A stretch of 64,000 nucleotides of DNA, taken from assembly GCF_011045215.1 (NCBI RefSeq), contig NZ_CP049201.1, one strand, 5' to 3'. This document shows positions 15,726-37,970 of this stretch, piece after piece. How positions within the stretch are numbered: the stretch's first letter is position 1; each line of letters starts with the position of its first letter. The translations under genes and the position numbers were made by a program. The notes under the pieces were generated by a model. It did no database searches. It was not told the DNA's origin and was given only the letters and a program-made list of their open reading frames with translations. Source of the stretch: Escherichia coli. Lineage in GTDB: Bacteria > Pseudomonadota > Gammaproteobacteria > Enterobacterales > Enterobacteriaceae.

Positions 15726-15802
15726 GGAGCGGTAGTTCAGTCGGTTAGAATACCTGCCTGTCACGCAGGGGGTCGCGGGTTCGAGTCCCGTCCGTTCCGC
15801 CA
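15726..15802 (+). tRNA. aspV: tRNA-Asp (GTC anticodon); island integration hotspot
   Basis: Sequence identical to the aspU copy at 7502..7578; followed by a terminator hairpin; foreign DNA begins immediately downstream. Confidence 0.95.
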
Positions 15803-23017: not shown

Positions 23018-24376
23018 TCAAACACATAATTTAGGATCCTGCTGGAGAGAGTAACCCAGTGATTTTGCTCTTCGCTTAAGCCCATCGAGTACGCGACTAC
23101 GGTAGCGTTCTTCATAATAATCTGCGCCAGGATCGGCATATTTTTGACCATACTTCAGGGCATTGTAGAACAGTATTGCCAGTTTTCTTGCTGTTGCAGT
23201 GACTGCTTATGCTTTCCCGATACGTGATGATAATCGACGATAAAAAGCACCCAACGCGGTATCGCTCCGGCCAATTGTTGTAGCTGCCAGCCTGAGTGCC
23301 GCAGCAATTCGACTGGATGAACGCCGTGTTTTCGAGGACAGCACTTTTCCACCGGAGATCTTATTTCCCGGGGACAAACATAGCCACGAGGTAAAATGGC
23401 TCGCATCCGGCCAGCGGTTCATGTCAGTACCGCATTCTGCAATGAATTTTAGTGCCATATAAGGTCCGAACCCATGTATCTGTGTCAGATCTGCCCCCGT
23501 AATTTTCCAGAGTAATGGTCTGACATCAAAGGAAAGCTGATTGGGTTGCTTTGTACGATGTCTGGCGGAGGGCAATACCCCTTCCGGCTCTTCAATTCCG
23601 GTACTGAGCTGCAATAATGAGGTTTCGATTTGAGCATCACATTCGCGGATCTTTTCCTGGTAAAAATCGAAAAATGCAACCGACTGTTCAAGTGCAAAAA
23701 GATGCTCAGGCTGCCAGTTTCCTGTCAGTGCCTGCCGAAGTACTTCTGGCGTCTTTTTACATCTCACATCACGATACTGGATCAACATTGAAGGATCGCG
23801 CTCACCACTGACGATAGCTCTGACGATTGAAAGACCGGTAACGCCAGTGATATCCGATACTGCATGATGTAGTTGCACATTCATCTGCATCAGCGCCTTC
23901 TGCATATGTTGAATATGCGCAGCCCGGTATTCAGTCAGGCGTTCCCGTTGCCTCAGATAAGACCTGAGTACAGAAATATCGTGTTCAGGTCTGAAACTGG
24001 CACGGAGAAGACCAAATGAATGCAACTTCTGCAACCACTGGGCATCGTTGACATCGGTCTTGTGACCGGGAATATTTTTTGCGTCTCTTGCATTAACTAG
24101 GATCACCTTGAAACCAGCTGCTTCAAGGATTTCAAAAGCAGGCAACCAGTAAACGCCGGTAGACTCCATGGCAATGGTCGTAATGTGACAGGTTTTGAGC
24201 CAGTCAGACATCCGCTGAAGATCGCCAGTAAAACTTTGAAAAGTCCTGACAGGCCCGGTGTCAGCATCAGGCGGTACGGCGACAACGTGGAACTCAGCGC
24301 CAATATCAACGCCCGCAGCATGAGGATGGACAATAGACATTCGGGAGGATTTTTTCATGGAAATTTCCTTGCTCAT
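23018..24376 (-). mobile_element. IS110-family transposase gene (about 452 codons) interrupted by an in-frame TAA at 23207..23209; the uninterrupted ORF is 23207..24376
   Basis: Translation shows IS110-type features: VDIGAEFHVVAV near the N-terminus and ...HFTSWLCLSPGNKISGGKVLSSKTRRSSSRIAAALRLAATTIGRSDTALGAFYRRLSSRIGKA, then a stop, then in the same frame AVTATARKLAILFYNALKYGQKY... continuing to 23018. Element boundaries not determined. Confidence 0.7.
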
Positions 24377-25242
24377 TTTCGATGAACGAAGGAGGGGACG
24401 ACGGAGAAATTACCTTCCTGAACGGGATCAAAGTCACCACTGTCGGATCCGCCACAGTCCCTGAACCATGTTTTTTTACGGGGTCATACCACCAAAAGGC
24501 CGACGGCTGCTTCCTTCGCTAAATTATCCTGCCAACTTTTCCGGGGAGTTTCTGAGATTCAGGACGGGGTTTCATCCATGGACAGTTTTTTAATATTTCT
24601 ATTTCAATATGTTGTGGTTTTTTCTTAAGCTCGCGTATTTCGAACTGTTCCGGGTTATGGGGGAGACTTTTGGCATTTTTCCTGTCGTTCATTTCGCAAC
24701 TGCTTTACCCATCGCGTCATGGTAGAAAGACCAACATCCATAGCACTGACCGCAGCCGCAACGGTGTATAGTTCTGGTCAATGACCAGTTGAGCGGATTC
24801 GCGTTTAAACTCTAAGCTGAAATTTCTTCTTTTCATTGAGACATCTGTATCGTTCTGAGGTGAGCATATCACTTCTATGCAGTTGGCCAAATTCAGTGTA
24901 CCACCGCAGATTAATTGATTGTTTTTAAAGTTTTTTAAGGGAAATGCATCCTTTATTCAGTAATGAATTGCTGATTCAGAACAAAGTGAGCATTTTATAA
25001 GTAAGTGATAACTTGACATCATAGTCAGTTAACAAATCGATTTAACCTAAGGCAAACCTGTCAGTAGTTATTGTTCTGTTTCGATTTTTATTAAATTTAC
25101 GATCAGGAAATAACCAAGAGGCTAAAAGTAATAATATCAATACTATCCAACCGATACTTTTTCCTGATTGTATGTCCATTTAGAATACAACTTCGCAATA
25201 TAATGCTAATAGCTTTTCTGCCATGGATGATTGGCCAGATAG

Positions 25243-26790
25243 CTAACATTTAGAATTGTTTAGCATTTCGTTTTTTACAGCAGTTTCAGCAAGCCAGACC
25301 ATAAAATCAATCGCACTCATCGGTTTTGCATAAAGATACCCCTGAATAAATCCAACATCCTTACCAAGAATATATCGAAGCTGCTGTTGGGTACTGACAC
25401 CTTCGGCGATAACATCCAAACCAAGTTTCTGGCATAGTGAGATAATCGTATCCAGAATAGGTACATTGATACCGCTGGTGTCAATCGTATCAACAAAGGT
25501 ACGGTCAATCTTTAAATAATTAGCTGGCAACTGTTGTAGATAAGCAAGTGAACAATAACCAGTACCGAAATCGTCTATTGCTATTAATACACCTTTTTCG
25601 CGCAAAATGGTGAGTTTCTCAGCCACTAGCTCTGGCTGGGTAATCAAGATGCGTTCCGTAACTTCCAACATAAGCTGAATAGTACCGATAGCTGCCATCA
25701 GTGCTTCTACATCCGAAATAAAGTCGTCATGAATCAAATGCTGAGGTGAAATATTAACGCTGATGTAAAAACTTTTGGGCAGTTGCCACTGCTTTACATC
25801 TTGGGCAATAAGTTGAAACAGATGACGTGAGAGCGGAACGATCATACCCTCACTTTCTGCCGCAGTGATGAAAATATCAGGTGTAATAAAGTTTCCTTCA
25901 GGTTGAGGCCAGCGCATTAAAGCCTCAACGCCACCACAACATTTGTGATTGACATTCAATACTGGTTGGTAATGAACAATAAATTGATCGTTTTTCATTC
26001 CTTTTGTTATTTCTCGCGCTAAAGAAAATCTTATCCGGTACCATCGCCGATAAAGCATGATTGTCAGAAAAGATAAACAGATGGATAACGGGATAAAAAA
26101 AAGTAAATTCTGCATCCATCGTGATGTTAACGTTGTGATCGGCGTTGCAACGGCTAGAGAGATTTGCTGATTCGGCAAAGAGTAGTGCTGAGTCATAAAT
26201 ATTCTGGCACCTTCTTTAGGTTGGCTTACAAGTAAATCACCAGTACCAAATCGCAGAGTGAATTTTGCTGATCTTTCTGTAGCCAAGACGTCCATCAGTT
26301 CTTGGATGTACCTTGAGTCAACAATGACAAATGCAGTTTTATTGCCTGTTATCTTTTCTGCGTAGATCACGACTGGTCTTTCGGGACCGCCTGACATACG
26401 AATAAAAGAAGAGACCCATTTCTCAGATAATGGTGTGGGGATTGTTTTGCCTTCAGGCAAAGGAAAAAGCAGTTTCTTCGCACCCGTGACAAAAGAGCAA
26501 GTAATATAACCATTTTCCAACAGTCCAATATCACGAATATAGGGAGTGAAGGCTCGAGTGTGGTTGAGTTCCGCCAGCATACTAGGGCAAGTGACACTGT
26601 CAAGTTGCTTTGCTTTTGAAGTTACGCGCCATGAAGCAACAGACAAATCTTCGCCATAACGAAGCAGGGTATTGGCACTAAAATTAATATCCTGTTTTAG
26701 TTGCATAACACTGGCAAGCAGCGCCAAGAGAGTCATAGCAACCAACGGAATGAATATGGAACCAAGTACAAAAGACCGCTTTACTTTCAT
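25243..26790 (-). CDS. Membrane-anchored cyclic-di-GMP phosphodiesterase (periplasmic sensor domain plus EAL domain)
   Basis: 515-aa ORF with an N-terminal TM helix, a periplasmic domain with cysteines (CSS-motif-like), a second TM helix, and an EAL domain (QPVLNVN...GVEALMRWPQPEG ... IDDFGTGYCSLAYL). Confidence 0.8.
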   Translation of the reverse strand: MKVKRSFVLGSIFIPLVAMTLLALLASVMQLKQDINFSANTLLRYGEDLSVASWRVTSKAKQLDSVTCPSMLAELNHTRAFTPYIRDIGLLENGYITCSFVTGAKKLLFPLPEGKTIPTPLSEKWVSSFIRMSGGPERPVVIYAEKITGNKTAFVIVDSRYIQELMDVLATERSAKFTLRFGTGDLLVSQPKEGARIFMTQHYSLPNQQISLAVATPITTLTSRWMQNLLFFIPLSICLSFLTIMLYRRWYRIRFSLAREITKGMKNDQFIVHYQPVLNVNHKCCGGVEALMRWPQPEGNFITPDIFITAAESEGMIVPLSRHLFQLIAQDVKQWQLPKSFYISVNISPQHLIHDDFISDVEALMAAIGTIQLMLEVTERILITQPELVAEKLTILREKGVLIAIDDFGTGYCSLAYLQQLPANYLKIDRTFVDTIDTSGINVPILDTIISLCQKLGLDVIAEGVSTQQQLRYILGKDVGFIQGYLYAKPMSAIDFMVWLAETAVKNEMLNNSKC

Positions 26791-27344
26791 TATATTAGGC
26801 TCATTATCAATGCAGCTAATCGCTTAATATATATTGGTATCATCATAACAACATTTTTCTTCCATCGGACAGGTAGAATTATATAACCGTCCCTTAAGAG
26901 AAAACAGGTTAGCATACAGCCTCCGGCTTCCCTACCTTAAAAGAGTTACAGTCGAAACTGAAATCTTCGGTTTTTCTTACATCCACAGAGAGGCGCATCA
27001 CCGTAAAAAGAACAATTATATAGAAGTACAGATCGCTATGCATGCAGACAAGCATCCCTGAGCTAATTATTACAGTCGGAAGAAGCATTATACCTGTCTG
27101 GGTATAACAGAATTGTGGGGTCAGCCCAACTATAGGGTAGGATCGTCTACCGTGGTGGGGTCAGTCTAATTGACGACTCGATGCAAGGCTCATTGAGTCG
27201 CATGAAAAACAAGGCGGGGCACAAAAAGTCGCATTTTTAAAGATAATAAAGGGAAATATGTATATTTATCAATGGATATATGGGTTTGTTTCTCCGCATT
27301 TAATACGCGGCGACGTCACTAATCAAACGCCCCTTGCATGACAG

Positions 27345-30300
27345 TCAAAAAGTCACCCTTATCCCCAGCACGGCAGCTGTATCACTGTAGCCCTTATCAC
27401 CAACCTGCTGACCGATGGTACCCCACAGGGAGACATACTTCGACAGTTGGCCTTCAACGCCCGCTTTCAGCTCGCCCACATCGCGGGTGCCCGCCAGATT
27501 GATGTTGTCACCGTTCATCGATACGCCAAACTCTTTACTGTTGTGAAGCCAGTTCGCTTCGATGAACGGTTGGAAGGTACGAGCCATACCCTCGTCAAGC
27601 TGGCTATGCCCCTTGCCAAACAGACGCACGCCGATGCGGGTCTGCACGTTGCCATCACCCTGGCCTTTCACGCGGGTACCATTCGCTTCCTGATGATCGT
27701 CGGCTCTGACGCCCATCCACGTTATTTGCGCTTGCGGTTGGATGTACAGCGCATTACGCTCGCCGGTCCGCGCCAGTTTCCAGGTGTAGCCGGATTCCAG
27801 TGATGCAGTGAAGCCCTTTGATTCATACGCCTCCACGCCAACGCCACGACCGGAAACGGTGTTGTCAAACCAGTTGTACTGCGCCCAGGTATCGACGTAG
27901 GCGCCTTCTGGCGTTTGCAGCCAGGTGCCGTACAGGCCAATGCTGTAACCACTGATGCGGCTGTCGGCGCGGTAGCCGTTAAGCTGGTTTTCGGCCCGAG
28001 TTTTCTGGTTGGCATAGCCTGCCATCAGACCGAGACGGAAACGATCTGCGCTGTCAGATGACCACTCAAAAATGTCGCCGCCGAGCTGCGTCACATTACG
28101 GTTAGCCTGCATTCCCAACAGGCCGCTGCTGTCTTGCTGATGGGTGTGACCGCCAGCATTACGCAGCCAAAGGCTGGTGATGGCTTCCTTGCCCGTCAGC
28201 GTGTCGATATAGTGTGTTTCGCCCTGGCGATCGCGTAAGCGAGTCACAAACAGCGTGTTTGCCGCCGCAAGGTTTGCGATGTAGCTTCCCGCTTCCGGAC
28301 GCAGATCGTCATGCCTGTCTGGAGTAGGGGCCGGGTCTGGATTAGTCTTACCACTGGTCAGATACCAGTTGCCGCTGTTCTCCCCCTGACCGCGGCCAAG
28401 GCTGTAATCGTAAGCGCCTGCCACAATACGGCCAGCCTGGATAAATTCGCCGTCAGAGTGCCCATCAACATGGATCACTTCAATGCCGTTCAGCGTTTGC
28501 GCACCTGTGCCGCCCGCATTGACTACGCTCACAGTGGTTTCACCATGGGTATCCCCTTTTACCACCAGTTCATCGGTAACGGAATGGTCATCACCCAGTG
28601 CGGTATTTATCGTGAGATACCCCTTTCTGCCGGTATAATTACCATTAATAACCAGTTGGTTACCGGCCTGATGACCTTTGAACCCGGTGGCCAGCAAACC
28701 GCTGTTGATAAGGTCTCCGCCCACCGTAAACCGATGATTCTCCTCATGGTGGGCACCCACCTGTAGCGTCCCGGCATTATTGATATTGCCAGCTACACCG
28801 CCAATACCGGCGAGCATTCCCGGCTGAGCGATATCCACCTGCGAGCTGGCAAGCGTCGCCGGTGACGCGTTGTTACCCAGCAACAGGCCACCTTGCTTGA
28901 TGTCCGTCTGGCCCGTCCAGGCGGCGTTGTCGCCCAGCGCGATCGTCCCGGTCCCCAGCTTGATTACGCGACCGGAACCATAAACGGTATTATCCAGTCG
29001 CCAGTTGTTGTCGCCGTTCAGCACCAGAGATCCGCTGTTATGAACTTCCGCCGCGCCGAGGCTGTCAGCCGTTAACGCCGTCATTTGTGAACCCGTATTA
29101 ACGGTGAACTGCCCCGAGAATGCCCGATTAGTCCCTGCCAGCACGACATCGCTGTCGATTAACTCAACCTGTCCGGCATCGCTAAGGCTATTGTAGAGAC
29201 GGCCTGCGGCATATCTGACGGACAGCGTTCCCGCGGCCACGATATTGCCTGTACCCGCCCCCAGTGTATGATCCAGTACTACCTTCGCGCCCTGCATTAT
29301 CGCGGTCGTTGCTTGCAGCTCGGGATTGTTACCAGAGATAGATAAGGTTCCGCCCGCAACGTTGAGCTGCCCGTTACCCGCCAGTACGCCTGATGCCTTA
29401 CCGCCGTTGGTCAACGTGAGTTGGCCGCCATTCAAATGGGTTAGAGAGCCGTTTTCTGCCGTGAGCGTGGCGATGGTTTGCGAATGGCCGCGCATATCAA
29501 ACCCGGTGTCGCCAGCCAGCTTCAGCTCGCGGGTATTCCCGAGCACGTTATCGTTCAGCATCGCCAGATTACCGCTGCGCACGTTGGTGACGCCGCGATA
29601 GTCATTATTCAGATTCGACAGCGTTACCGTCTGGCCTTTCTGGCTGTCAATCGCCAGATCGCCGTCGCCGGTGAGTGTTGCGCTGAGATCGGCCGCATTA
29701 CCGCCTTTTCCGTTCGCATTGAGGATAAGCGCATCAGCTTCTTTGTCCATCAAATCGACATTGGTCAGAGCATAGTTGACGTACAGTCCGTCATCACGGT
29801 CACCGCGGGTAAGACGATAGTCGTAAGTTGCATTCGCAACCACGGCGCCATGCTGGGTAATGTCGGCTTCAGCTGTATCACTGATCACATGGGCGTTCTG
29901 GTCAGTTAACGTTAAGTTACCACCGTGACCGATAACGCCGCCGTCACTGGATACCAGTCGCACAAGAATATTACTCTCATCCTGTTCCAGTAAGGGGATA
30001 AGGGTATCAGGCATTGGCCTGTCATTACTGAAGGTGGTTCCTCTCGTTACCTGTACGGTTCCCTGACCCGAAATATCCAGCTGGCCGGTGGTATGTACCG
30101 TAGCAGGGGAGGTTTTTTGACCCGGGTTAACTTCACCAACAAGCAATGTTCCCCCCTCAAACGTGAGCCCGCCCAGGGTTTGCCGACCCTCGCCAACCTT
30201 CACCAAACTTCCCGATCCCATTTTCATCGACAGGTCTTTTAACGCTGCCGCATTCGTTTCGGCCAGCGAAAACGCCGTATCCTGAAGCGCCACCGTTCCC

Positions 30301-31556
30301 CGGAAGTTATCGGTCAAACGAGATGAGTCAAAAACAAAATCGTTGCCGTTTGTGTTAACGGAAAGCACGCCGTCTCCGGTTAATTTGTTCAGAAAACGCC
30401 AGCGCTGAGATGTCTCTATGGACAGCGTGCCGCCGTTAAGCAATACCGTGTTGGCGCCAATATTTTTTGGGTCCGTTATTAAGAGGCGGGCCGGAGAGTC
30501 GATAGAAAAATAGCCATGAAAATTCGAGTTATCACCGGCAAGCGCGGATAGGCCGTTCAACATATTGACGCGGCCCTTGCCACTCAAATTCGCCGACAGA
30601 GAAAATAAAGCGCTGGCATGATTAAATGTCAGAACGCCTTCCCTGAAGCCGAAAATAATCTCTTTGGTATTAATATTTCCGGCGGCGACAGCCTGCTCGC
30701 CGGCCCTTGCTCCAACGGCAAGCTCTCCTTTCCTGCCTCCTTTGGAAATGATAATTTCTCTGGCGCTTAGCAGGCCATTATCGGAGGCGATCGCTGTGGC
30801 TGTTCCATCCCAACCTACAATAAGCGTCGCGTCCGTCGAGATGACAGAGCCGGCCCCGGCTACCTGAAGCAGATTATCATAGCCGGCAGTTTCCAGCTGA
30901 TTCCCGACCTGAATATTCGCGTCAGCATGCGTCTTACCGCCATTAGTGGTTATCAGCGTGCCTGACCCATAGGTCCCGACTATAATTCTGCTTGCGGTTG
31001 CTAACTCACTTCCCGGACCATCAACATAGATACGTCCTGAGGTCGTAGATGACGGCGTTCTTCGGCTACCTATCCATATCCCGCTCCAGGTATTGTCCGA
31101 GCCGTGATGAAATAACTTTCCTCCCTGAGTAATATTTACCACGCCGCTTCCGTTTCCCATACCAACCTGTAAAGAACGATTTTTTTTGTCAATCGTAACT
31201 ATACTTCCTGGTCCGCTAATATTCAGTACCCCATAGCCATCAGGATTTTTTGAATCTGACTTACCGCCAACCAGTAAAGGATCGGTGTAAGTAGATTTGA
31301 TAATGTTCAGTCTGCCACCATCCGTTATATTGACGGTGCCTGTGGAGCCGTGTATCCCTATTTGAAAAAGCTCAGCTTGAACATAACCACCATTAGAAAT
31401 ATTAAGGGTGCCGTCAGTCTCATCACCAATAAAAATCCACGGTTCTTCCCATAATGAATCTATCTTTAACGCTTGGTTATCATTAATGGTTGCAGCTGGT
31501 GCACCGGTTGCACACATTGATGTGATAATAGCGATGAATAATTTACTTACTTTCAT
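27345..31556 (-). CDS. Type Va autotransporter (AIDA-I-like adhesin family, 1403 aa)
   Basis: N-terminal signal peptide, long Gly/Thr/Asn-rich beta-helical repeat passenger (repeated ...GG.L...G... units), C-terminal beta-barrel translocator ending ...VLGIRVTF with a terminal aromatic residue. Confidence 0.85.
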   Translation of the reverse strand: MKVSKLFIAIITSMCATGAPAATINDNQALKIDSLWEEPWIFIGDETDGTLNISNGGYVQAELFQIGIHGSTGTVNITDGGRLNIIKSTYTDPLLVGGKSDSKNPDGYGVLNISGPGSIVTIDKKNRSLQVGMGNGSGVVNITQGGKLFHHGSDNTWSGIWIGSRRTPSSTTSGRIYVDGPGSELATASRIIVGTYGSGTLITTNGGKTHADANIQVGNQLETAGYDNLLQVAGAGSVISTDATLIVGWDGTATAIASDNGLLSAREIIISKGGRKGELAVGARAGEQAVAAGNINTKEIIFGFREGVLTFNHASALFSLSANLSGKGRVNMLNGLSALAGDNSNFHGYFSIDSPARLLITDPKNIGANTVLLNGGTLSIETSQRWRFLNKLTGDGVLSVNTNGNDFVFDSSRLTDNFRGTVALQDTAFSLAETNAAALKDLSMKMGSGSLVKVGEGRQTLGGLTFEGGTLLVGEVNPGQKTSPATVHTTGQLDISGQGTVQVTRGTTFSNDRPMPDTLIPLLEQDESNILVRLVSSDGGVIGHGGNLTLTDQNAHVISDTAEADITQHGAVVANATYDYRLTRGDRDDGLYVNYALTNVDLMDKEADALILNANGKGGNAADLSATLTGDGDLAIDSQKGQTVTLSNLNNDYRGVTNVRSGNLAMLNDNVLGNTRELKLAGDTGFDMRGHSQTIATLTAENGSLTHLNGGQLTLTNGGKASGVLAGNGQLNVAGGTLSISGNNPELQATTAIMQGAKVVLDHTLGAGTGNIVAAGTLSVRYAAGRLYNSLSDAGQVELIDSDVVLAGTNRAFSGQFTVNTGSQMTALTADSLGAAEVHNSGSLVLNGDNNWRLDNTVYGSGRVIKLGTGTIALGDNAAWTGQTDIKQGGLLLGNNASPATLASSQVDIAQPGMLAGIGGVAGNINNAGTLQVGAHHEENHRFTVGGDLINSGLLATGFKGHQAGNQLVINGNYTGRKGYLTINTALGDDHSVTDELVVKGDTHGETTVSVVNAGGTGAQTLNGIEVIHVDGHSDGEFIQAGRIVAGAYDYSLGRGQGENSGNWYLTSGKTNPDPAPTPDRHDDLRPEAGSYIANLAAANTLFVTRLRDRQGETHYIDTLTGKEAITSLWLRNAGGHTHQQDSSGLLGMQANRNVTQLGGDIFEWSSDSADRFRLGLMAGYANQKTRAENQLNGYRADSRISGYSIGLYGTWLQTPEGAYVDTWAQYNWFDNTVSGRGVGVEAYESKGFTASLESGYTWKLARTGERNALYIQPQAQITWMGVRADDHQEANGTRVKGQGDGNVQTRIGVRLFGKGHSQLDEGMARTFQPFIEANWLHNSKEFGVSMNGDNINLAGTRDVGELKAGVEGQLSKYVSLWGTIGQQVGDKGYSDTAAVLGIRVTF

Positions 31557-31963
31557 AAAAAGCTCGGCGAATAATATGGATTGCCCCGTTGAGGAAAATT
31601 GACAGACGAGTCAGACCTGACAATGCTGCCGGTTCTGTGTGCTTTGAGCTGAAATCCTTATCTGGCAACGTATTAACAAGGTCTTTGTGCTAAGGAAAAG
31701 TTTATGGAAAAAGATCTGAAAAGTGCTTACTGCAAACTGAATAAATCTTACTTTTTTCTTACTTGTTTGACTTCTTTTTAGACTGAACGTAGGGTGCATT
31801 TGAATGAGAGGATAGTGCTGTTTGATTGATCAATAATAAAAATTCAGTACAGTGACGGAATATCTTATTTTATTATTGTCATACACTTCAGCGCGCCGGG
31901 CCGATCATTAGCAGAGAGAGATTATTCATAGAGATAACGAAGAAACCCTATCGTTAAAGTAGA

Positions 31964-32719
31964 GTGATAATGAATGCTACCAAATTTTTGTTAGACGGCA
32001 GAGTGCTATTTGATAGCGCCAGAATGACATTAAGTCGACAAGAGAAAATAGTCAGGCTCTCCGAGTCAGAGTGCCATTTACTGCTGGCTTTTTGGCTTGG
32101 ATTGTATAAAAAAGAAGAGATAATCAATTATGTCTGGAAAAATCGCAGCGGATGCGTTTCTGAATCGAGCTATTACAAACTTATCAATCAACTGCGAAAT
32201 AACTTCAATCGGGTGGGGCTTCACGCATCAGATATTGTTACACATCCCCGGGTGGGAATATCGTTATCGATAACGCTGACTTCCGCTGATGAAATGTGCG
32301 ACCTTCAGCAACAAAACGATGATGGGGCGCAGAAAATAAAATTCCGTGCCCTTTTGTCGCACCGGTTTATGGTTAAATGTAAAAACATGCGAGTACTTTG
32401 TTGCACCAGCGGTGTGGTATTGCTGATAGGTATTATCCTCATTTTTAGTTTTCCCAGCGATACAACATGGAATAAATCTGATAAGGAGTTCACCTCGCTT
32501 GGCGAGTTTGATGGTTATATTTTCTTTAAAATGAAGACGGATAAATTGACATTCAAGCAAGTCATCGCCGCATATACATCGATGACATTAAAACCTGACC
32601 CGCAAAATGGTCATTATCTTTATTACATCAGGGAGCCTGATATCAATCTTTTATTTCAGTGTTTAAATCCGATTGAAAACGTGGTGCCAAAATGTTTAAC
32701 CATAAAAGAACAGTACTGA
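31964..32719 (+). CDS. ToxR/CadC-like membrane-bound transcriptional regulator (N-terminal winged helix, one TM helix, periplasmic domain)
   Basis: N-terminal region FLLDGRVLFDSARMTL...ESECHLLLAFWL...EEIINYVWKNR..VSESSYYKLINQLRNNF...THPRVGISL follows the OmpR/ToxR winged-helix pattern; TM segment VLCCTSGVVLLIGIILIFSF; AT-rich gene. Confidence 0.7.
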   Translation: MIMNATKFLLDGRVLFDSARMTLSRQEKIVRLSESECHLLLAFWLGLYKKEEIINYVWKNRSGCVSESSYYKLINQLRNNFNRVGLHASDIVTHPRVGISLSITLTSADEMCDLQQQNDDGAQKIKFRALLSHRFMVKCKNMRVLCCTSGVVLLIGIILIFSFPSDTTWNKSDKEFTSLGEFDGYIFFKMKTDKLTFKQVIAAYTSMTLKPDPQNGHYLYYIREPDINLLFQCLNPIENVVPKCLTIKEQY

Positions 32720-33198
32720 TTACGATGACGGTCATTGCGCTGGTGCTGATCGTGATATTTGGCAGAAACGGGTGGAGTGTTCAGCGAAATGTTATGAATG
32801 TGGATAATTTTATTTGTACATCTAAATCAATAGTTTATATTGAACCTATGAAGATGAAACTGCGTGGTACGTTTGTGCTGGATCTTGAGTCAGACCGAAT
32901 CGCCATTCATTATGAAGTTGAACAGGCGGATCATAAGGAAAAACTTTTTTTCCAGGATGTTCATATCAGTAAATTACTCCGAACAGGTATCAGAACGTTC
33001 ACATTTAAAGTCAGCTCAGTAAATAAATTTTCTGCTGATTCAACCGGAGATATGTTTTCCTGGTTACGTCTCCTTCAACCCGGTACGGTGAATGAGTTGA
33101 ATATTGTCCAGATCGGTCAAAATGCATATCTGTATTCGTTGAACAGGCATTTATATAATATTTGTACGACAAGCACCAACGCGGTGAATACGCACTAA
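32692..33198 (+). CDS. ToxS/TcpH-like bitopic partner protein of the upstream regulator
   Basis: 168-aa ORF overlapping the upstream gene by 28 nt; N-terminal TM helix (VLITMTVIALVLIVIF) followed by a soluble, presumably periplasmic, domain. Confidence 0.55.
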   Translation: MFNHKRTVLITMTVIALVLIVIFGRNGWSVQRNVMNVDNFICTSKSIVYIEPMKMKLRGTFVLDLESDRIAIHYEVEQADHKEKLFFQDVHISKLLRTGIRTFTFKVSSVNKFSADSTGDMFSWLRLLQPGTVNELNIVQIGQNAYLYSLNRHLYNICTTSTNAVNTH

Positions 33199-33396
33199 TA
33201 GCTGTGTAATGGCCGGTCTATATGGGCATTGTGGCGGGTGTTGATAACGGAAGGGACTATTACATGTCCAATTTCGTCTGGAGCTGGCCTGTGTTAATAT
33301 GAACGCTGAAGGTTCCGTAAGGCTCTTAACTCAGTGCCTGGCAAGGCTGTACAACGGCAGAATCGGATACTCAATGAATAAATTGCAGAAGAAACC

Positions 33397-34137
33397 ATGA
33401 GCGAGCAAAAGTATCTTATCGACAATCGCGTGATATTTGATTCTGAGCGTATGTCATTGACTCACTCAGACAAAACGGTGAGCATTTCAGAATCCGAAAC
33501 GAATTTGCTGCTTGCTTTCTATAAGGGGTTATTCAAAAAGGATGATTTAATCGGCTGGGTCTGGGGGCGTAAGGGAGTCGTAGTTTCTGATGCCAGCTAT
33601 TATAAGCTCATCAATCAGTTACGTAATACTTTCGACAAAATAGGTCTACCGCCCTCATCTGTGGTGACGCGGCCCAAAGTCGGCGTTGAGCTGGTTTTAT
33701 CCATCACGCTCATTAAGCCTGCGACTCCCCGACAACCTGCTGCTGAACCGGTAGAACACTCAGCCGAATCCTTCAGCGAAACCCCGACAATACATGAACA
33801 CAATAAAACCGCTGTAGCAGGCCAGAGAGACTGGCTTTTTCTGGTATTGGCCGCGCTGTTGATGATCGCAGGATTTGGCGCCAGTCTGTGGGAGAGCCAT
33901 CCCTACTTTTCAGTGCCCGTTACCCATGACGGTTACTATTTTTATAAAGTAAGTAACGATAAAACGTCCTTCGAGGATGTGGCTGCGGCCTATGCAGAAT
34001 TGACAATTCCGGTGATTAAGCAGAATGGACGTCATATTTACTATATCAGAGTGCCGGATACCCATATTTTCGTCCAGTGCCTCAACCCACTCACCGTAGC
34101 GGAGCCAAAATGTATTACCCTAAAAGAACGTTATTAA
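33397..34137 (+). CDS. ToxR/CadC-like membrane-bound transcriptional regulator, paralogue of 31964..32719
   Basis: YLIDNRVIFDSERMSL...ESETNLLLAFYKGLFKKDDLIGWVWG...VSDASYYKLINQLRNTF...TRPKVGVEL is a clear paralogue of the first regulator; TM segment LFLVLAALLMIAGFGASLW. Confidence 0.7.
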   Translation: MSEQKYLIDNRVIFDSERMSLTHSDKTVSISESETNLLLAFYKGLFKKDDLIGWVWGRKGVVVSDASYYKLINQLRNTFDKIGLPPSSVVTRPKVGVELVLSITLIKPATPRQPAAEPVEHSAESFSETPTIHEHNKTAVAGQRDWLFLVLAALLMIAGFGASLWESHPYFSVPVTHDGYYFYKVSNDKTSFEDVAAAYAELTIPVIKQNGRHIYYIRVPDTHIFVQCLNPLTVAEPKCITLKERY

Positions 34138-34598
34138 GAATATTCACCGTGTTCTTTATTCTCGTCTCCGTGATGTTATGGGTACAGGTAATAAAGAAGC
34201 ACGCGGTCAGTCACCCCTCCGCGGGCAATTTTTTCTGTGCCACCAAAACGATAAGCAACATACAGGCGAAGGGGATAACCGTTGCGGGGGATATTGTCAT
34301 CGACTTCAAAACGCAACGTATTACGTTACAGCATGATGTGAAACAGCATAATAATGCGCATAGCCTGTTATATCGGGATGTTTACATGAAAAATCTGCGG
34401 CGCGTCACTGACGATCTTTTTACGTTTGAGATTGATTCTGTAAAGATATTTCCTGATGACAATGTCGGGAATTTTTTCTCCTATTTTCGCCTGCTCCATC
34501 CGGGGGGCCGCAACGAATTGCGAATTCAACGCATTGGCGAGAAAACCTATCTTTTTTCGCTTAATCGTCAGATTTATAACGTCTGTACAGCAAGTTGA
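34110..34598 (+). CDS. ToxS/TcpH-like bitopic partner protein, paralogue of 32692..33198
   Basis: Start placed at the internal Met (MYYPKRTLLRIFTVFFILVSVMLW) so that it overlaps the upstream gene by 28 nt exactly as in the first pair; C-terminal region paralogous (..YLFSLNRQIYNVCTAS versus ..YLYSLNRHLYNICTTS). Confidence 0.55.
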   Translation: MYYPKRTLLRIFTVFFILVSVMLWVQVIKKHAVSHPSAGNFFCATKTISNIQAKGITVAGDIVIDFKTQRITLQHDVKQHNNAHSLLYRDVYMKNLRRVTDDLFTFEIDSVKIFPDDNVGNFFSYFRLLHPGGRNELRIQRIGEKTYLFSLNRQIYNVCTAS

Positions 34599-34878
34599 AC
34601 TGCACAGGAATGCCCCGAGAGATTCTCTGAGGCCGTATGATAAGAGAGCGGTAAGCGGTAAGGTAACTGAAAGCTCATTACTTATTTAAATACATGGGTT
34701 TATATCAATCGTTCTGATTCTGTTCAACAGTGACAGAGTGAGATTATGATTTTTGTAAGATCTTCTTCCAGACTTTATCTGCCCTGATTAGCTATATTTT
34801 CGCCGCTGTAAACGGACATCAGAATACGTTTAAGTAGTCGTAATTAATGCTTTTTTCAATAAGATAAAGAGGGAGTAT

Positions 34879-35424
34879 TTGTCCATGTCTACGCGACTTC
34901 GTGGCGCTGCAATAATTTGTTTTTGTCTGCTAGCCTCATCTCAGAGTATGGCTAGTGGCACACATACGGTATCAATGGGGTATGCTCAAACACATCTGAG
35001 CGCATTAAAAAGCTCGAACAGCAAAGATCTTCATGGCTTTAATATAAAATATCGCTACGAGTTTGACGAACGCTGGGGCTTTATTGGTGCGTTAACGGCG
35101 ACTCGCCACGAAGTTGAGCATTATAGCTGGCAATCAGCAAAATTAAAAAAAGAGGGTACCGATACCATTGATTATAGTTCGGTAATGTTTGGCCCAACTT
35201 ATCGCTTTAATGATTACATCAGCCTGTATGGCAATGCAGGTATGGCGAGAATGAAAATGAAAAATACTCACTCAAACGAATCAACGGATGATTCGTTTGC
35301 ATACGGGGCCGGGGTAATATTTAACCCGTTAACCAACCTATCGCTTGATCTTTCCTGGGAAGCGTCAAAATTCTATTCTGTCGATGCCAATACGTTTGGC
35401 GTAAGCGTTGGCTATCGCTTTTAA
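34879..35424 (+). CDS. Ail/Lom/OmpX/PagC-family eight-stranded outer membrane beta-barrel protein
   Basis: Signal peptide, alternating amphipathic beta-strands, C-terminal ...FGVSVGYRF ending in Phe; family pattern GYAQT...FNIKYRYEF. Confidence 0.75.
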   Translation: MSMSTRLRGAAIICFCLLASSQSMASGTHTVSMGYAQTHLSALKSSNSKDLHGFNIKYRYEFDERWGFIGALTATRHEVEHYSWQSAKLKKEGTDTIDYSSVMFGPTYRFNDYISLYGNAGMARMKMKNTHSNESTDDSFAYGAGVIFNPLTNLSLDLSWEASKFYSVDANTFGVSVGYRF

Positions 35425-35485: not shown

Positions 35486-35842
35486 ATGAAATATATATTA
35501 CCAGCTCTTTTTACGGTGTTTTTAACCGCCTGTAGCGCTAACTCATTACATTCGGGGGCGGAACGGGTTCGTGTGACTCATAACGAGCCTGGAAAAGAGT
35601 GTTCGTGGTTAGGCGACATCACTGGCAGCCAGGGCAACTTTTTTACCGGAGGTTGGACCTCGAACAGTAACCTCGAAACAGGCGCGCGGAATGATATGAA
35701 AAATCAGGCCTGGAAAATGGGTGGAAATGTTGTTGTGCTGCTAACGCAACGCGCAGGGCAAACAGGCAGTTCGTACAATGGCAGTGGTTCAAGTCAGCAA
35801 ACTAACGTGACGCTAAGCGGATCGGTCTACCGTTGCCCATAG
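35486..35842 (+). CDS. Small lipoprotein (118 aa)
   Basis: Signal peptide with lipobox (FLTACSAN), Gly/Ser-rich mature part. Confidence 0.6.
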   Translation: MKYILPALFTVFLTACSANSLHSGAERVRVTHNEPGKECSWLGDITGSQGNFFTGGWTSNSNLETGARNDMKNQAWKMGGNVVVLLTQRAGQTGSSYNGSGSSQQTNVTLSGSVYRCP

Positions 35843-36018: not shown

Positions 36019-36594
36019 ATGGATATACATTTTAAAGCACAATCTCCTGAGGCAGTAACGCTCGCCGTGTGGCCAGATAATAATCCTCTGTTCACTGACT
36101 CTCTTGCCCATTTGATCACCGAAATAAACGTAATAAATCGCGTAGAAGATTTTCTTTTCGTCAATTTTTGCATCGATAACTTTATATACTTTATTCATGA
36201 TGAGTGGCTTGAAAAGTTGAACAAGTCAGGCCTGAGGGGGGTGCTGGTTATTGACCGTTTTATGCATTCGCTGGCGAATTATTGGCGTGAAAAACAACAG
36301 GATATTATCTTGTTATCGGTTGGCGATCGGGACCTGACGTCATTTGTATCGGCCCTGAATAGCCTGTCTTATGGACAAAGCAGGGTGCTAGAAGATGTCA
36401 TGCCGATAACAGAAAAAGAAATTTTTGTGTTACGTAAACGCCTCTCCGGTATGTCCGTAAGAAATATCGCACTCACCCTTAATTGCTCGGTTAAAAGTAT
36501 TTATTATTGCCAGTATTCTTTATTAAAAAAATTGAGGCGTTCGTCACGAATAGGCGAGATTTATATCCATCACTCTCACGTGCATGAGACTTAG
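36019..36594 (+). CDS. LuxR/FixJ-type HTH transcriptional regulator (191 aa)
   Basis: C-terminal HTH EKEIFVLRKRLSGMSVRNIALTLNCSVKSIYYCQYSLLKKL fits the LuxR-type pattern; no receiver-domain motifs recognised in the N-terminal part. Confidence 0.6.
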   Translation: MDIHFKAQSPEAVTLAVWPDNNPLFTDSLAHLITEINVINRVEDFLFVNFCIDNFIYFIHDEWLEKLNKSGLRGVLVIDRFMHSLANYWREKQQDIILLSVGDRDLTSFVSALNSLSYGQSRVLEDVMPITEKEIFVLRKRLSGMSVRNIALTLNCSVKSIYYCQYSLLKKLRRSSRIGEIYIHHSHVHET

Positions 36595-36798: not shown

Positions 36799-37665
36799 CT
36801 AAGCGAGGTTCTGGTTTTCAAATTGTTCCGGACTGAGGCCGCCACACCAACTGTGCCGCCGCCACCGATTGTAATCACATTCGATATAATTAAACACCGT
36901 TGCCCGCATTATTTCCCGGCTGATAAAGTGTTCTCCATGGATACATTCCACTTTCAGCGAATGAAAGAAGCTTTCCACGCAGGCATTATCGTAGCAGCAA
37001 CCTTTTGCGCTCATACTTCCACGCAGATTATGCCGCTTCAGTTGCGCCTGATAATCTGCTGAACAGTACTGGCCTCCACGGTCCGTGTGAACGATAACGT
37101 TCCGGGGCCTCTTACGCCGCCACAGCGCCATCTGCAGGGCATCGCAGGCCAGTTGCGCCGTCATGCGTGGCGACATTGACCAGCCAATAACGGCACGTGA
37201 CCACAGGTCAATGACCACTGCCAGATACAGCCAGCCTTCATCTGTACGTAAGTACGTGATGTCTCCTGCCCACTTCTGGTTCGGGCCACTGGCGTAAAAA
37301 TCCTGCTCCAACAGATTTTCTGACACAGGCAGGCCGTGTGCGCGGTAGCTGACCGGGCTGAACTTCCGGGAGGCCTTTGCCCTCAGTCCCTGACGGCGCA
37401 GGCTTGCCGCCACGGTTTTTACGTTAAAGGGGTAACCCTGAGCACGCAGTTCATCCGTCAGGCGTGGGGCACCGTAACGCTGTTTTGACCGGGTAAAAGC
37501 CGCGAGGACAACGCTGTCGCAGTGTTGGCGGAACTGCTGACGCGTGCTTATCCTTGTCCGCCGCTGACACCACGTATACCAGCCGCTGCGGGCCACCCGG
37601 AGCACGCGGCACATTGCTTTGATGCTGAACTCAGCCTGATGTTTTTCAATAAAGACATACTTCAT
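36799..37665 (-). CDS. insF: IS3 transposase OrfB (DDE integrase-type catalytic domain)
   Basis: 288-aa ORF with DDE-domain residues (...WAGDITYL..., ...[10 protein letters not shown]...) inside the IS3 element. Confidence 0.9.
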
Positions 37666-37970
37666 TTCAGGCGCTTCGCGAAGTATGTCGCGGCCTTTTG
37701 GAGGATAGCCAGCTCTTCATCCCGTTCTGCCAGCTGGCGTTTGAGACGTGCAATCTCGGTAGACATCTCCAGTTCACGTTCAGAAGACGTCTGCTGATTT
37801 TGCTGTTTACTGCGCCAGTTGTAGAGCTGTGATTCATACAGGCTGAGTTCACGGGCTGCGGCAGTAACACCGATGCGTTCAGCAAGCTTCAGGGCTTCAC
37901 TGCGAAATTCAGGCGAATGCTGTTTACGGGGTTTTTTACTGGTTGATACTGTTTTTGTCATGTGAGTCAC
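37662..37970 (-). CDS. insE: IS3 transposase OrfA (HTH protein)
   Basis: 102-aa [55 protein letters not shown]... inside the IS3 element. Confidence 0.9.

What the first reader, a model, noticed from the sequence alone, without database searches (positions are those of the whole stretch)
25243..31556. Island-encoded EAL phosphodiesterase adjacent to a 1403-aa autotransporter
A membrane-anchored EAL-domain protein with a periplasmic sensor domain lies next to, and on the same strand as, a large AIDA-like autotransporter, separated by about 550 bp. The pairing suggests local c-di-GMP control linked to adhesin expression or biofilm behaviour, carried on accessory DNA.
Basis: inference. Interest (0 to 1): 0.4.

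Follow-up and report, generated by a model that had tools for sequence, protein, structure and literature searches.

The report
Imported adhesin module with c-di-GMP phosphodiesterase
A rare E. coli island carries an intact autotransporter adhesin followed by an apparently active membrane c-di-GMP phosphodiesterase, both part of an adhesin-regulation module shared with Citrobacter and Salmonella; this is a new member of known families, not a new kind of system.

Summary
ORFs 25243-26790 (515 aa) and 27345-31556 (1403 aa) lie on the minus strand, 554 bp apart, on accessory DNA at tRNA-Asp (aspV). Only 1 of 5426 complete E. coli genomes carries the block.

The 515-aa protein has the architecture TM1, periplasmic CSS domain, TM2, EAL. 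Both conserved periplasmic cysteines (C68, C98) and all EAL catalytic residues are present. It is 59% identical to the Salmonella STM0343-type phosphodiesterase. The 1403-aa protein is a classical AIDA-I/EhaA-type autotransporter.

The larger unit matters more than the pair. A 9.4-kb block is 95% identical in DNA to Citrobacter sedlakii. It holds the autotransporter, two ToxR/ToxS-like regulator pairs, an Ail/OmpX-like protein, a DUF4156 protein and an EcpR-like LuxR regulator. C. sedlakii has no EAL gene there. Another enterobacterial scaffold has autotransporter, 115 bp, then EAL, next to proBA. Relatives of the same EAL sit beside Stb-type or ECP fimbrial operons with no autotransporter.

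So the phosphodiesterase belongs to a modular adhesin-regulation cassette, not specifically to the autotransporter. Non-orthologous EAL genes do recur downstream of related autotransporters (ehaA-pdeL and others), so a functional link is plausible but unproven. I rate it a new member of a known kind, of modest interest.

The parts
25243..26790 (-). CSS-domain EAL c-di-GMP phosphodiesterase gene (515 aa), STM0343-family
   Evidence: ORF. Pfam CSS-motif plus EAL. TM segments 7-25 and 229-247. C68, C98 and S99 are invariant in 16 CSS-EAL proteins, and catalytic E289, R293, N346, E376, E379, D406, D407, K427, E463 and Q483 are present. 59% identical to the Salmonella cluster P0006. Aligns to the active PA3825 EAL domain, E 7e-49.
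26791..27344 (.). 554-bp mosaic spacer between the autotransporter and the EAL gene
   Evidence: blastn divides the spacer into five segments. 27344-27325 is shared by all autotransporter loci. 27324-27285 is shared only with C. sedlakii L013 and L007. 27284-27120 has no relative. 27119-26896 is shared with L097/L098 (EAL beside the ecp operon). 26895-26791 is shared with L093/L099/L100 and L097/L098. There is a promoter-like site at 27272-27243 (-) and no terminator-like site in the spacer. No Rfam hit. The fold is not better than shuffles.
27345..31556 (-). Type Va autotransporter adhesin gene (1403 aa), AIDA-I/EhaA type
   Evidence: ORF. Pfam AC_1 plus Autotransporter. AIDA-I 4MEE E 6e-95 over residues 963-1403. 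T5SS/PEP-CTERM repeats in the passenger. Short Sec-type leader MKVSKLFIAIITSMCATGAPAA. 97% aa identity to C. sedlakii. 55%, 45% and 30% aa identity to E. coli EhaA in C-terminal, middle and N-terminal segments.
31557..31969 (.). Divergent control region between the autotransporter and the first regulator pair
   Evidence: 91% mean identity across 6 loci, with long invariant blocks. These include three AGTAAG direct repeats at about 31723-31765. GC is 38%. The function of the repeats is inferred, not shown.
31970..32719 (+). ToxR-like bitopic winged-helix regulator 1 (249 aa), STM0341-like
   Evidence: NCBI annotation 'winged helix-turn-helix'. TM at 142-160 and a C-terminal periplasmic Cys pair. 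49% identical to the Salmonella 254-aa neighbour of the STM0343-type EAL. Pfam Trans_reg_C is weak, only E 0.047.
32692..33198 (+). Small membrane-anchored partner 1 (168 aa), STM0342/ToxS-like
   Evidence: N-terminal TM. Its ATG overlaps the Cys codon TGT of the upstream gene with a one-nucleotide shift, the signature described in PMC9214523. 69% identical to the Salmonella fragment.
33397..34137 (+). ToxR-like bitopic regulator 2 (246 aa), STM0344-like
   Evidence: 39% identical to regulator 1. TM at 146-164. 54% identical to the Salmonella 247-aa protein downstream of the EAL.
34110..34598 (+). Small partner 2 (162 aa), STM0345/FidL-like
   Evidence: 48% identical to the Salmonella 162-aa protein. 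Weak Pfam FidL_like hit, E 0.047. Same ATG/TGT overlap as pair 1.
34885..35424 (+). Ail/Lom/OmpX-like outer-membrane beta-barrel protein (179 aa)
   Evidence: Pfam Ail_Lom and OMP_b-brl. 70% identical to the Salmonella neighbour.
35486..35842 (+). DUF4156 protein with a lipoprotein-type leader (118 aa)
   Evidence: Pfam DUF4156, E 4e-29. Leader ends in LTAC. 80% identical to the Salmonella copy.
36019..36594 (+). EcpR-like LuxR-family regulator (191 aa)
   Evidence: Pfam GerE. NCBIfam EcpR E 3e-14, below its cut-off. An EcpR_N hit is recorded for the identical gene in L006.
23207..24376 (-). IS110-family transposase gene on the left flank of the rare block
   Evidence: ORF. Annotated in PapRG-06-5 (window = L001 + 4999).
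36799..37970 (-). IS3 element on the right flank of the rare block
   Evidence: Annotated in PapRG-06-5. ORFs. Homology to C. sedlakii ends at 36682.
15726..15802 (+). tRNA-Asp (aspV), the island integration site
   Evidence: ARAGORN. Annotated after dnaQ in related genomes.

Best explanation
Both genes are intact and probably functional. I read them as two components of a modular adhesin-regulation cassette that this E. coli lineage acquired horizontally, most likely from Citrobacter, rather than as a dedicated two-gene unit.

**The cassette.** Its conserved core is two ToxR/ToxS-like co-component regulator pairs (homologues of Salmonella STM0341/0342 and STM0344/0345), an Ail/OmpX-like outer-membrane protein, a DUF4156 protein and an EcpR-like LuxR regulator. 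The adhesin attached to this core is exchangeable. Here and in C. sedlakii it is an EhaA/AIDA-type autotransporter. In Salmonella and C. werkmanii it is an Stb-type chaperone-usher fimbria. In another scaffold it is ECP.

**The phosphodiesterase.** The STM0343-family CSS-EAL gene travels with the cassette but changes position within it.

**Proposed mechanism (inferred).**
- The divergently encoded bitopic regulators sense a periplasmic or gut cue and activate the autotransporter promoter, as MarT/FidL does for misL.
- The phosphodiesterase hydrolyses c-di-GMP when its periplasmic C68-C98 disulfide is reduced, as in PdeC.
- That lowers curli and matrix expression and favours motility, as reported for STM0343.
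- The cell therefore switches from matrix-based to adhesin-based attachment.

The EAL gene may be transcribed by read-through from the autotransporter, from its own promoter in the 554-bp spacer, or both.

**Shown versus inferred.** Gene integrity, domain and residue conservation, homology and synteny are shown here. Enzyme activity, redox gating, regulation of the autotransporter and any cross-talk are inferred.
For: **Architecture and residues.**

**Origin.**
- Window 27285-36682 is 95% nt identical to C. sedlakii NBRC 105722, where the block sits beside proA/proB.
- Only 1 of 5426 complete E. coli genomes carries the block.
- The block is IS-flanked at aspV.

**Cassette homology.**
- Every regulator, Ail and DUF4156 gene has a 48-80% identical counterpart around the Salmonella STM0343-type EAL and in C. 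werkmanii.
- PMC9214523 names STM0341/0342 and STM0344/0345 as ToxR/ToxS-like cassettes. It describes the ATG/Cys-codon overlap that is also seen at window 32692 and 34110.

**Adhesin exchange.** The adhesin is an Stb-like operon in L003/L004/L096, an ecp operon in L097/L098, and an autotransporter in the window, L013, L007, L093 and L099.

**EAL mobility within the cassette.**
- It lies between the two regulator pairs in Salmonella and C. werkmanii.
- It lies after the autotransporter in the window and in L093/L099/L100 (115-bp gap).
- It is divergent from a regulator pair in L097.
- It is absent in L013 and L094.

**Composition.** EAL GC (41%) matches the regulators (38-46%), not the autotransporter (54%).

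**Function of relatives.**
- STM0343 deletion raises c-di-GMP, biofilm and csgB expression and lowers motility (PMC11737180).
- PdeC is controlled by its redox state and by DegP/DegQ through C75 and C106 (PMC5897775).
- MarT/FidL activates misL (cited in PMC9214523).
Against: - Nothing here is experimental for these genes.
- The regulator proteins reach only weak Pfam scores (Trans_reg_C and FidL_like, both E 0.047). Their assignment therefore rests on homology to the Salmonella block and on gene-order correspondence with published STM numbers, not on a direct comparison with LT2 sequences.
- The third residue of the CSS motif is F, not S, in this subfamily. The effect on redox control is unknown.
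- Non-orthologous EAL genes recur directly downstream of related autotransporters. That fits a tighter, autotransporter-specific coupling better than this module-level reading does.
- No c-di-GMP effector was identified in the module.
Confidence: 0.55

Rival explanations
1. Dedicated autotransporter-phosphodiesterase unit. The EAL gene is co-transcribed with the autotransporter. It acts locally to tune the autotransporter's expression or function, or to suppress matrix that would mask the short adhesin whenever the autotransporter is made.
For: - The genes share a strand, with the autotransporter upstream, and no terminator-like site lies in the spacer.
- The same pair sits only 115 bp apart in L093/L099/L100/L095.
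- Related autotransporters are followed on the same strand by non-orthologous EAL genes. These are ehaA-pdeL (141 bp), L014 (68 bp), L045 (109 bp), L040/L049 (after a second autotransporter) and L008 (after a GerE gene).
- An HMM census found an EAL gene within 10 kb in 6 of 79 genome loci, all on the autotransporter's strand and five of them downstream.
- Among the 18 loci whose match starts within the first 121 residues, 5 have an EAL gene.
Against: - The closest autotransporter (C. sedlakii, 95% nt) and L094 (90% nt) lack the EAL gene.
- An 89%-identical EAL occurs without any autotransporter.
- The spacer here is 554 bp, mosaic, and contains a promoter-like site.
- There is a GC discontinuity between the two genes.
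- ehaA is an insertion upstream of a pre-existing pdeL. K-12 has pdeL without ehaA (my own knowledge, not checked here).
- The total EAL density within 10 kb (6 in about 1.3 Mb) is not far above a genome-wide expectation of about 3-4. That expectation is my estimate.
- Many loci are phylogenetically non-independent.
Confidence: 0.25
2. Fortuitous juxtaposition. The two genes were brought together by recombination and IS activity during island assembly and have no functional relationship.
For: - The spacer is a mosaic with different relatives for each segment, including a 165-bp stretch with no relative.
- IS110, IS3 and transposase fragments flank the block.
- GC content differs between the genes.
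- The EAL gene is absent from the C. sedlakii locus.
Against: - The same adjacency exists at a chromosomal site next to proBA in a different organism with no IS nearby (L099).
- The EAL family is consistently embedded in the same regulatory cassette as the autotransporter's neighbours.
- Autotransporter-then-EAL arrangements recur in other lineages.
Confidence: 0.15
3. The EAL protein is not an enzyme but a degenerate c-di-GMP sensor or trigger protein, like YdiV or the degenerate CSS-EAL next to the L008 autotransporter.
For: A homologous autotransporter (61% identical) is followed by a clearly degenerate CSS-EAL that lacks the DDFG, N and K residues. Some database names for the Salmonella cluster read 'YdiV'.
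Against: Every catalytic and metal-binding residue is conserved in the window protein. The Salmonella relative STM0343 lowers c-di-GMP in vivo.
Confidence: 0.05

Closest known systems
Salmonella Typhimurium STM0343 (CSS-EAL) with flanking STM0341/0342 and STM0344/0345 co-component cassettes, next to the stb fimbrial operon
   Same: The EAL proteins are 59% identical over their full length. The regulator pairs, Ail-like protein and DUF4156 protein are homologous at 48-80%. The ATG/Cys-codon gene overlap is the same. In both, an adhesin locus is transcribed divergently from the first regulator.
   Different: The adhesin here is an autotransporter, not chaperone-usher fimbriae. The EAL gene lies 3' of the adhesin on the opposite strand to the regulators, instead of between the two regulator pairs. 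Correspondence to LT2 gene numbers is inferred from gene order, not checked against LT2 sequence.
E. coli PdeC and the other CSS-domain phosphodiesterases (PdeB, PdeD, PdeG, PdeN, PdeT)
   Same: Same TM1-CSS-TM2-EAL architecture. The two conserved periplasmic cysteines, C68 and C98, align with PdeC C75 and C106. The EAL active site is complete.
   Different: Only about 40% identical to the best E. coli paralogue. It falls below the NCBIfam PRK10551 cut-off (292 against 461 bits). The motif reads C-S-F. It is accessory and extremely rare in E. coli.
EhaA autotransporter with downstream pdeL (E. coli O157 and other strains)
   Same: EhaA is the closest named E. coli autotransporter: 55% aa identity C-terminal, 45% middle, 30% N-terminal. 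An EAL gene follows on the same strand (141 bp).
   Different: PdeL is a cytoplasmic LuxR-EAL protein, not a CSS-EAL. The ehaA locus has no ToxR-like regulators. The two autotransporters are not orthologous.
MarT/FidL-MisL of Salmonella SPI-3
   Same: A ToxR-like bitopic regulator with a small membrane partner is encoded next to an AIDA-type autotransporter that it activates (PMC9214523). The MisL beta-domain matches (NCBIfam 442 bits).
   Different: The regulators are distant: FidL_like scores only E 0.047. There are two pairs instead of one. No EAL gene is reported in SPI-3. Regulation of the autotransporter here is untested.
Adhesin-operon-linked phosphodiesterases: SfaY/PdeY (S fimbriae), and MrkJ and FimK of Klebsiella
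   Same: An accessory EAL gene is encoded with an adhesin locus, linking adhesin expression to c-di-GMP. PdeY is mentioned in PMC5635171. MrkJ and FimK are from my own knowledge.
   Different: Those are soluble EAL proteins within fimbrial operons. This is a membrane CSS-EAL next to an autotransporter.
E. coli K-12 pdeG-ymgF-ycgH
   Same: A CSS-EAL gene and an autotransporter (pseudo)gene lie on one strand within 750 bp. The ycgH C-terminus is 47% identical to this autotransporter.
   Different: The order is reversed, with the EAL gene upstream. PdeG is only 29% identical. It is a core-genome locus, and ycgH is a pseudogene in K-12.

Membership tests
CSS-domain EAL phosphodiesterases (PdeC type) | TM1 - periplasmic CSS domain - TM2 - cytoplasmic EAL domain | tested here: met
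   Pfam CSS-motif at 32-228 and EAL at 259-490. Hydrophobic segments at 7-25 and 229-247.
CSS-domain EAL phosphodiesterases (PdeC type) | Two conserved periplasmic cysteines (PdeC C75 and C106 of the CSS motif) | tested here: met
   C68, C98 and S99 are invariant in a 16-sequence alignment. The motif is C-S-F in this subfamily. PdeC positions come from PMC5897775.
CSS-domain EAL phosphodiesterases (PdeC type) | Complete EAL catalytic and metal-binding residue set | tested here: met
   E289(AL), R293, N346, E376, E379, D406-D407(FGTGY), K427, E463 and Q483 are present. The domain aligns to active PA3825, PdeL and TBD1265 EAL structures.
CSS-domain EAL phosphodiesterases (PdeC type) | DsbA/DsbB-dependent inhibition and DegP/DegQ processing; measurable phosphodiesterase activity | not testable with these tools
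   Needs biochemistry and genetics.
NCBIfam PRK10551 (518-aa CSS-EAL equivalog; I take it to be Rtn/PdeN, from memory) | Score at or above the curated cut-off of 461 bits | tested here: not met
   291.8 bits. This protein is not an orthologue of that core E. coli phosphodiesterase.
STM0343 family (Salmonella/Citrobacter/Klebsiella cassette phosphodiesterase) | Full-length similarity plus a neighbourhood of co-component regulator pairs, Ail-like and DUF4156 genes | tested here: met
   59-66% identity over 98-100% of the length. The neighbouring genes are homologous. The position of the EAL gene inside the cassette differs.
Type Va (classical) autotransporters, AIDA-I type | N-terminal signal peptide, passenger, AC_1 autochaperone, C-terminal 12-strand beta-barrel domain | tested here: met
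   Pfam AC_1 at 962-1053 and Autotransporter at 1129-1380. TIGR01414 396 bits. 4MEE E 6e-95. The leader was read from the sequence. No signal-peptide predictor was run.
AIDA-I / MisL / YfaL / ECSE_1600 equivalogs | NCBIfam score at or above the curated cut-off | tested here: not met
   AIDA-I 359 of 1200 bits, MisL 442 of 1297, YfaL 184 of 1459, ECSE_1600 799 of 2335.
EhaA | Orthology to E. coli EhaA | tested here: not met
   Only 70% nt identity over 13% of the gene. Segmental aa identity is 30-55%. It is a paralogue-level relative.
ToxR/ToxS (VtrA/VtrC)-like co-component cassettes | Bitopic wHTH regulator with a periplasmic Cys pair, plus an overlapping downstream gene for a small membrane-anchored periplasmic partner | tested here: met
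   Single TM at 142-160 or 146-164 and a C-terminal QC...PKC pair. Partners have an N-terminal TM. ATG/TGT one-nucleotide-shift overlap, as described in PMC9214523. 48-54% identity to the Salmonella pairs.
ToxR/ToxS (VtrA/VtrC)-like co-component cassettes | OmpR/ToxR-type wHTH and a lipocalin-like partner fold, recognisable by profile or structure | tested here: inconclusive
   Pfam Trans_reg_C E 0.047 and FidL_like E 0.047, both far below cut-off. No structure was predicted.

The most novel reading that the evidence does not exclude
EhaA-family autotransporters may have repeatedly recruited a downstream EAL gene from at least four unrelated EAL lineages: STM0343-type CSS-EAL, a second CSS-EAL type, a degenerate CSS-EAL with a LuxR gene, and LuxR-EAL PdeL. 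If so, there is selection for an 'adhesin plus c-di-GMP sink or sensor' unit. Making this class of short adhesin would then automatically lower or read c-di-GMP, for example to remove curli and cellulose that would mask it. This would be a general and so far undescribed design rule for autotransporter loci.
Probability: 0.2. Interest if true: 0.55.

Novelty: new member of a known kind. Interest (0 to 1): 0.3.

Why it matters
- **A new accessory c-di-GMP enzyme in E. coli.** This adds a phosphodiesterase of the STM0343 family, previously characterised only in Salmonella, to the E. coli repertoire. It arrived by inter-genus transfer together with an adhesin and its likely regulators.
- **Modular cassettes.** The ToxR/ToxS-like co-component cassettes described in 2022 form a unit into which different adhesins are plugged (autotransporter, Stb fimbriae, ECP) and in which a redox-type phosphodiesterase is a recurrent passenger.
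- **A testable model.** This gives a concrete route to study how gut cues could coordinate adhesin choice with c-di-GMP-controlled matrix and motility.
- **Limits.** It does not change any established concept, and the pair itself is ordinary.

Tried and rejected
- **c-di-GMP riboswitch or other known RNA** upstream of either gene: Rfam at permissive threshold over 22000-38000 gave no hit.
- **Intrinsic terminator or structured RNA** after the autotransporter stop: none in the pattern scan, and the fold z-score was +0.45. In L099 there is only a weak hairpin. Co-transcription therefore stays open.
- **Tandem repeats** in the autotransporter or spacer: none.
- **Remnant of an STM0342-like gene upstream of the EAL**, which would show excision from a Salmonella-type arrangement: only a 32-aa match at E 0.29. 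This is too weak to use.
- **Assumption that the window equals PapRG-06-5.** This was wrong beyond 38 kb. Coordinates transferred from that record failed, and the window runs into T6SS genes instead.
- **VpsT-type W[FLM][TS]R c-di-GMP motif** in the LuxR, Ail, DUF4156 proteins or the 194-aa ORF product: absent.
- **E. coli relatives of the EAL at DNA level:** none apart from PapRG-06-5. On plasmids the best hit is 59% (Salmonella records).
- **Not attempted.** I ran no structure prediction because it would not decide the question.

Full report
**1. Observation**

The ORF list contains 25243..26790 (-) of 515 aa and 27345..31556 (-) of 1403 aa. They share a strand and are 554 bp apart. In the direction of transcription the large gene comes first.

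Pfam assigns CSS-motif (E 2e-21) plus EAL (E 1e-60) to the 515-aa protein. It assigns the AC_1 autochaperone (E 1.5e-25) plus the Autotransporter beta-domain (E 1e-41) to the 1403-aa protein. A hydropathy scan finds two membrane segments in the EAL protein, at 7-25 and 229-247, bracketing the CSS domain.

**2. Where the window comes from**

The window is E. coli chromosome:
- metN, gmhB, the rrnH operon, then dkgB through dnaQ
- tRNA-Asp (aspV) at 15726-15802
- a CP4-like island with cbtA/yeeU-type genes, up to about 22047

That part is common in E. coli. The next stretch, 22048 to about 38027, is not. A 7-kb query covering the finding matched 1 of 5426 complete E. coli genomes, strain PapRG-06-5 from a Gambian baboon. 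The EAL gene alone has no other E. coli relative at DNA level.

The block is bounded by IS110 and IS3 fragments on the left and an IS3 copy on the right. The window is not PapRG-06-5 itself. Beyond 38 kb that strain carries a fimbrial operon, a third regulator pair and a truncated second EAL gene. The window continues into T6SS genes instead. A Logan contig, L006, has exactly the window's arrangement. The exact EAL protein is recorded from two E. coli genomes.

**3. The EAL protein**

It aligns over its whole EAL domain to active enzymes of known structure: PA3825 at E 7e-49, plus TBD1265, PdeL/YahA and RocR. I aligned it with 15 other CSS-EAL proteins and searched the motifs directly. It keeps the following residues:
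- E289 of the EAL motif, and R293
- N346
- E376 and E379 (EVTE)
- D406 and D407 (DDFGTGY)
- K427 (KID)
- E463 (EGV)
- Q483

C68, C98 and S99 are invariant in that alignment. They correspond to the two periplasmic cysteines of PdeC, C75 and C106. The disulfide between those two, made by DsbA/DsbB, holds PdeC in a low-activity state, and its loss triggers DegP/DegQ processing (PMC5897775). In this subfamily the motif reads C-S-F.

The closest relatives are:

| Relative | Identity |
|---|---|
| Sequencing-read assemblies | 91% |
| Salmonella, Citrobacter werkmanii, Klebsiella | 64-66% |
| Large Salmonella cluster P0006 | 59% |
| Best E. coli paralogue | about 40% |

The NCBIfam equivalog for a core CSS-EAL is not reached (292 against 461 bits). 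At sequence level this is a competent CSS-type phosphodiesterase and not one of the named E. coli enzymes.

**4. The autotransporter**

The last 440 residues match the AIDA-I translocation unit (PDB 4MEE, E 6e-95). The passenger carries T5SS/PEP-CTERM-type repeats. The N-terminus is a short Sec-type leader. None of the curated equivalogs is reached (AIDA-I, MisL, YfaL, ECSE_1600). The nearest named E. coli protein is EhaA, with 70% nt identity over 13% of the gene and 30-55% aa identity by segment. 'AIDA-like' is fair as a type, not as orthology.

**5. The neighbours**

Seven genes are transcribed divergently from the autotransporter:
- two pairs, each of a 246-249-aa 'winged-helix' protein and an overlapping gene of 162-168 aa
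- an Ail/OmpX-like barrel
- a DUF4156 protein with a lipoprotein-type leader
- an EcpR-like LuxR regulator

The larger proteins have one central membrane segment and a C-terminal Cys pair. The small ones have an N-terminal anchor.

The same set surrounds the Salmonella P0006 EAL next to an Stb-like chaperone-usher operon. Identities there are 49% and 54% for the regulators, 69% and 48% for the partners, 70% for Ail and 80% for DUF4156. Kinch et al. (PMC9214523) list STM0341/STM0342 and STM0344/STM0345 as neighbouring ToxR/ToxS (VtrA/VtrC)-like co-component cassettes. By numbering these flank STM0343. They note that the partner's ATG overlaps the regulator's Cys codon with a one-nucleotide shift. 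That exact overlap (AAATGT) occurs at window 32692 and 34110.

STM0343 has been studied. Its deletion raised c-di-GMP by about 30%, increased biofilm and csgB expression, and reduced motility (PMC11737180). The same PNAS paper recalls that MarT/FidL, a member of this regulator class, activates the neighbouring autotransporter gene misL.

**6. Is the autotransporter-EAL pairing conserved?**

I scanned one genome per species with an alignment of autotransporter homologues and screened all loci by tblastn and an EAL HMM.

(a) Citrobacter sedlakii has the autotransporter at 97% aa identity. Window 27285-36682 is 95% identical in DNA to its chromosome. The block runs from 60 bp past the autotransporter stop to just past the LuxR gene and sits beside proA/proB. 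There is no EAL gene. Where another scaffold has 1761 bp with the EAL gene, C. sedlakii has 95 bp.

(b) Scaffold L099, with contigs L093, L100 and L095, carries the same module at about 90% nt. There the order is autotransporter, 115 bp, then a 515-aa CSS-EAL (92.5% nt to the window), followed by proA, proB, phoE and crl. The pair therefore exists at a chromosomal site with no IS elements.

(c) L094 (90% nt) has the autotransporter followed by yafT and T6SS genes, with no EAL gene.

(d) L097 and L098 carry an 89%-identical EAL. It is divergent from a single regulator pair and the ecp (MatB, EcpB-E) operon, with no autotransporter.

(e) In C. werkmanii and Salmonella the EAL gene lies between the two regulator pairs, next to Stb-type fimbriae.

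The window's 554-bp spacer reflects this history. Successive segments match all autotransporter loci, then only C. sedlakii and L007, then nothing (165 bp), then L097/L098, then L097/L098 together with L093/L099. GC content also separates the EAL gene (41%) and the regulators (38-46%) from the autotransporter (54%). I conclude that the EAL gene belongs to the regulatory cassette and has been shuffled within it, and that the adhesin is the exchangeable part.

**7. A wider pattern**

Other relatives of this autotransporter are followed on the same strand by EAL genes that are not orthologous to this one (19-28% identity in the alignment; PdeL, compared separately, is about 36% identical over the EAL domain).

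| Locus | Organism | Arrangement |
|---|---|---|
| L092, L068 | E. coli, E. whittamii | ehaA, 141 bp, pdeL (a LuxR-EAL protein) |
| L014 | Citrobacter sp. | 1440-aa autotransporter, 68 bp, CSS-EAL |
| L045 | Pseudocitrobacter | 2322-aa autotransporter, 109 bp, CSS-EAL |
| L040, L049 | C. amalonaticus group | autotransporter, second autotransporter, CSS-EAL |
| L008 | unidentified | autotransporter (61% identical), GerE gene, degenerate CSS-EAL lacking DDFG |

In the census, 6 of 79 genome loci have an EAL gene within 10 kb, all on the autotransporter's strand. Five of the 18 loci whose match starts within the first 121 residues have one. None of the loci that match only the barrel does. Other downstream neighbours are unrelated: HipA, MFS, CusF, LysR and DUF1161. 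K-12 also has pdeG-ymgF-ycgH.

Immediate-downstream EAL genes occur in 3 of 79 loci. That is well above my rough per-gene expectation of about 0.3%. However, the loci are not independent, total EAL density within 10 kb is only modestly above my genome-wide estimate, and ehaA is an insertion next to a pre-existing pdeL. I treat this as suggestive, not established.

**8. Transcription**

No terminator-like site lies in the spacer, and there is a promoter-like site at 27272-27243 on the minus strand. RNA folding of the region after the autotransporter stop is no better than shuffled sequence. There is no Rfam match in 22-38 kb, so no c-di-GMP riboswitch. Both read-through and independent transcription remain possible.

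The 413-bp region upstream of the autotransporter is 91% identical in six loci. It contains three AGTAAG direct repeats, which are candidate sites for the winged-helix regulators. This is inference only.

**9. Verdict**

The finding is real and correctly described. Its interpretation is partly right. The phosphodiesterase is very probably active, and its family is tied to adhesin loci. The tie is to a modular cassette shared with Citrobacter and Salmonella rather than to the autotransporter as such. The likelier direct regulators of the autotransporter are the divergent ToxR/ToxS-like pairs.

Both proteins are new members of known kinds. The most novel reading still open is a selected autotransporter-plus-EAL design. 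It deserves a tree-aware survey, but I give it about 0.2.

Noticed in passing
window 31970-34598: Two tandem ToxR/ToxS-like co-component cassettes (homologues of Salmonella STM0341/0342 and STM0344/0345). The partner gene's ATG overlaps the regulator's Cys codon (AAATGT) at 32692 and 34110. Periplasmic Cys pairs occur in the regulators, the partners and the CSS domain, so the whole module could be Dsb/redox-sensitive.
   Followed up: partly
window 31723-31765 (minus strand), within 31557-31969: Three AGTAAG direct repeats lie inside an autotransporter upstream region that is 91% identical across six loci from different organisms. They are candidate binding sites for the winged-helix regulators.
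   Followed up: partly
window 27120-27284: A 165-bp segment of the autotransporter-EAL spacer has no relative in any locus fetched. It lies between segments that match different loci, and its origin is unknown.
   Followed up: partly
L001 33557-44590 (PapRG-06-5, beyond the window's IS3): The only complete genome with this module also carries a chaperone-usher fimbrial operon, a third, more divergent co-component pair, and a truncated second CSS-EAL (P0012, 61% identical) next to another IS3. The window lacks these and continues into T6SS vgrG/Tle1 genes from about 39.2 kb.
   Followed up: partly
L013 versus L099: The adhesin module is about 90% identical in DNA between C. sedlakii and an unidentified enterobacterial scaffold. 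The adjacent core genes (proA, proB, phoE side) are only about 79% identical. This suggests the module is exchanged between species at the same chromosomal site.
   Followed up: no
L009/L010 10001-14597: A 51%-identical autotransporter in Citrobacter is carried as prophage cargo between lysis genes and the terminase (Nu1). It is followed by a 99-aa ORF with a faint GerE hit.
   Followed up: no
L008 2047-8571: A 61%-identical autotransporter is followed by a GerE/LuxR gene and a CSS-EAL whose EAL domain is clearly degenerate (no DDFG, N or K). It may be a c-di-GMP sensor rather than an enzyme.
   Followed up: partly
window 22116-22700 (-): A 194-aa ORF at the left edge of the rare block has no Pfam hit. 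It is annotated as hypothetical in PapRG-06-5.
   Followed up: no
window 15803-22047: A CP4-like island segment directly after aspV carries DUF4942 fragments, cbtA/yeeU toxin-antitoxin genes, radC, an antirestriction gene, DUF932 and IrmA. It is shared with many E. coli. The tRNA-proximal end is the toxin-antitoxin end, and PapRG-06-5 has its integrase at the far end next to T6SS genes.
   Followed up: no
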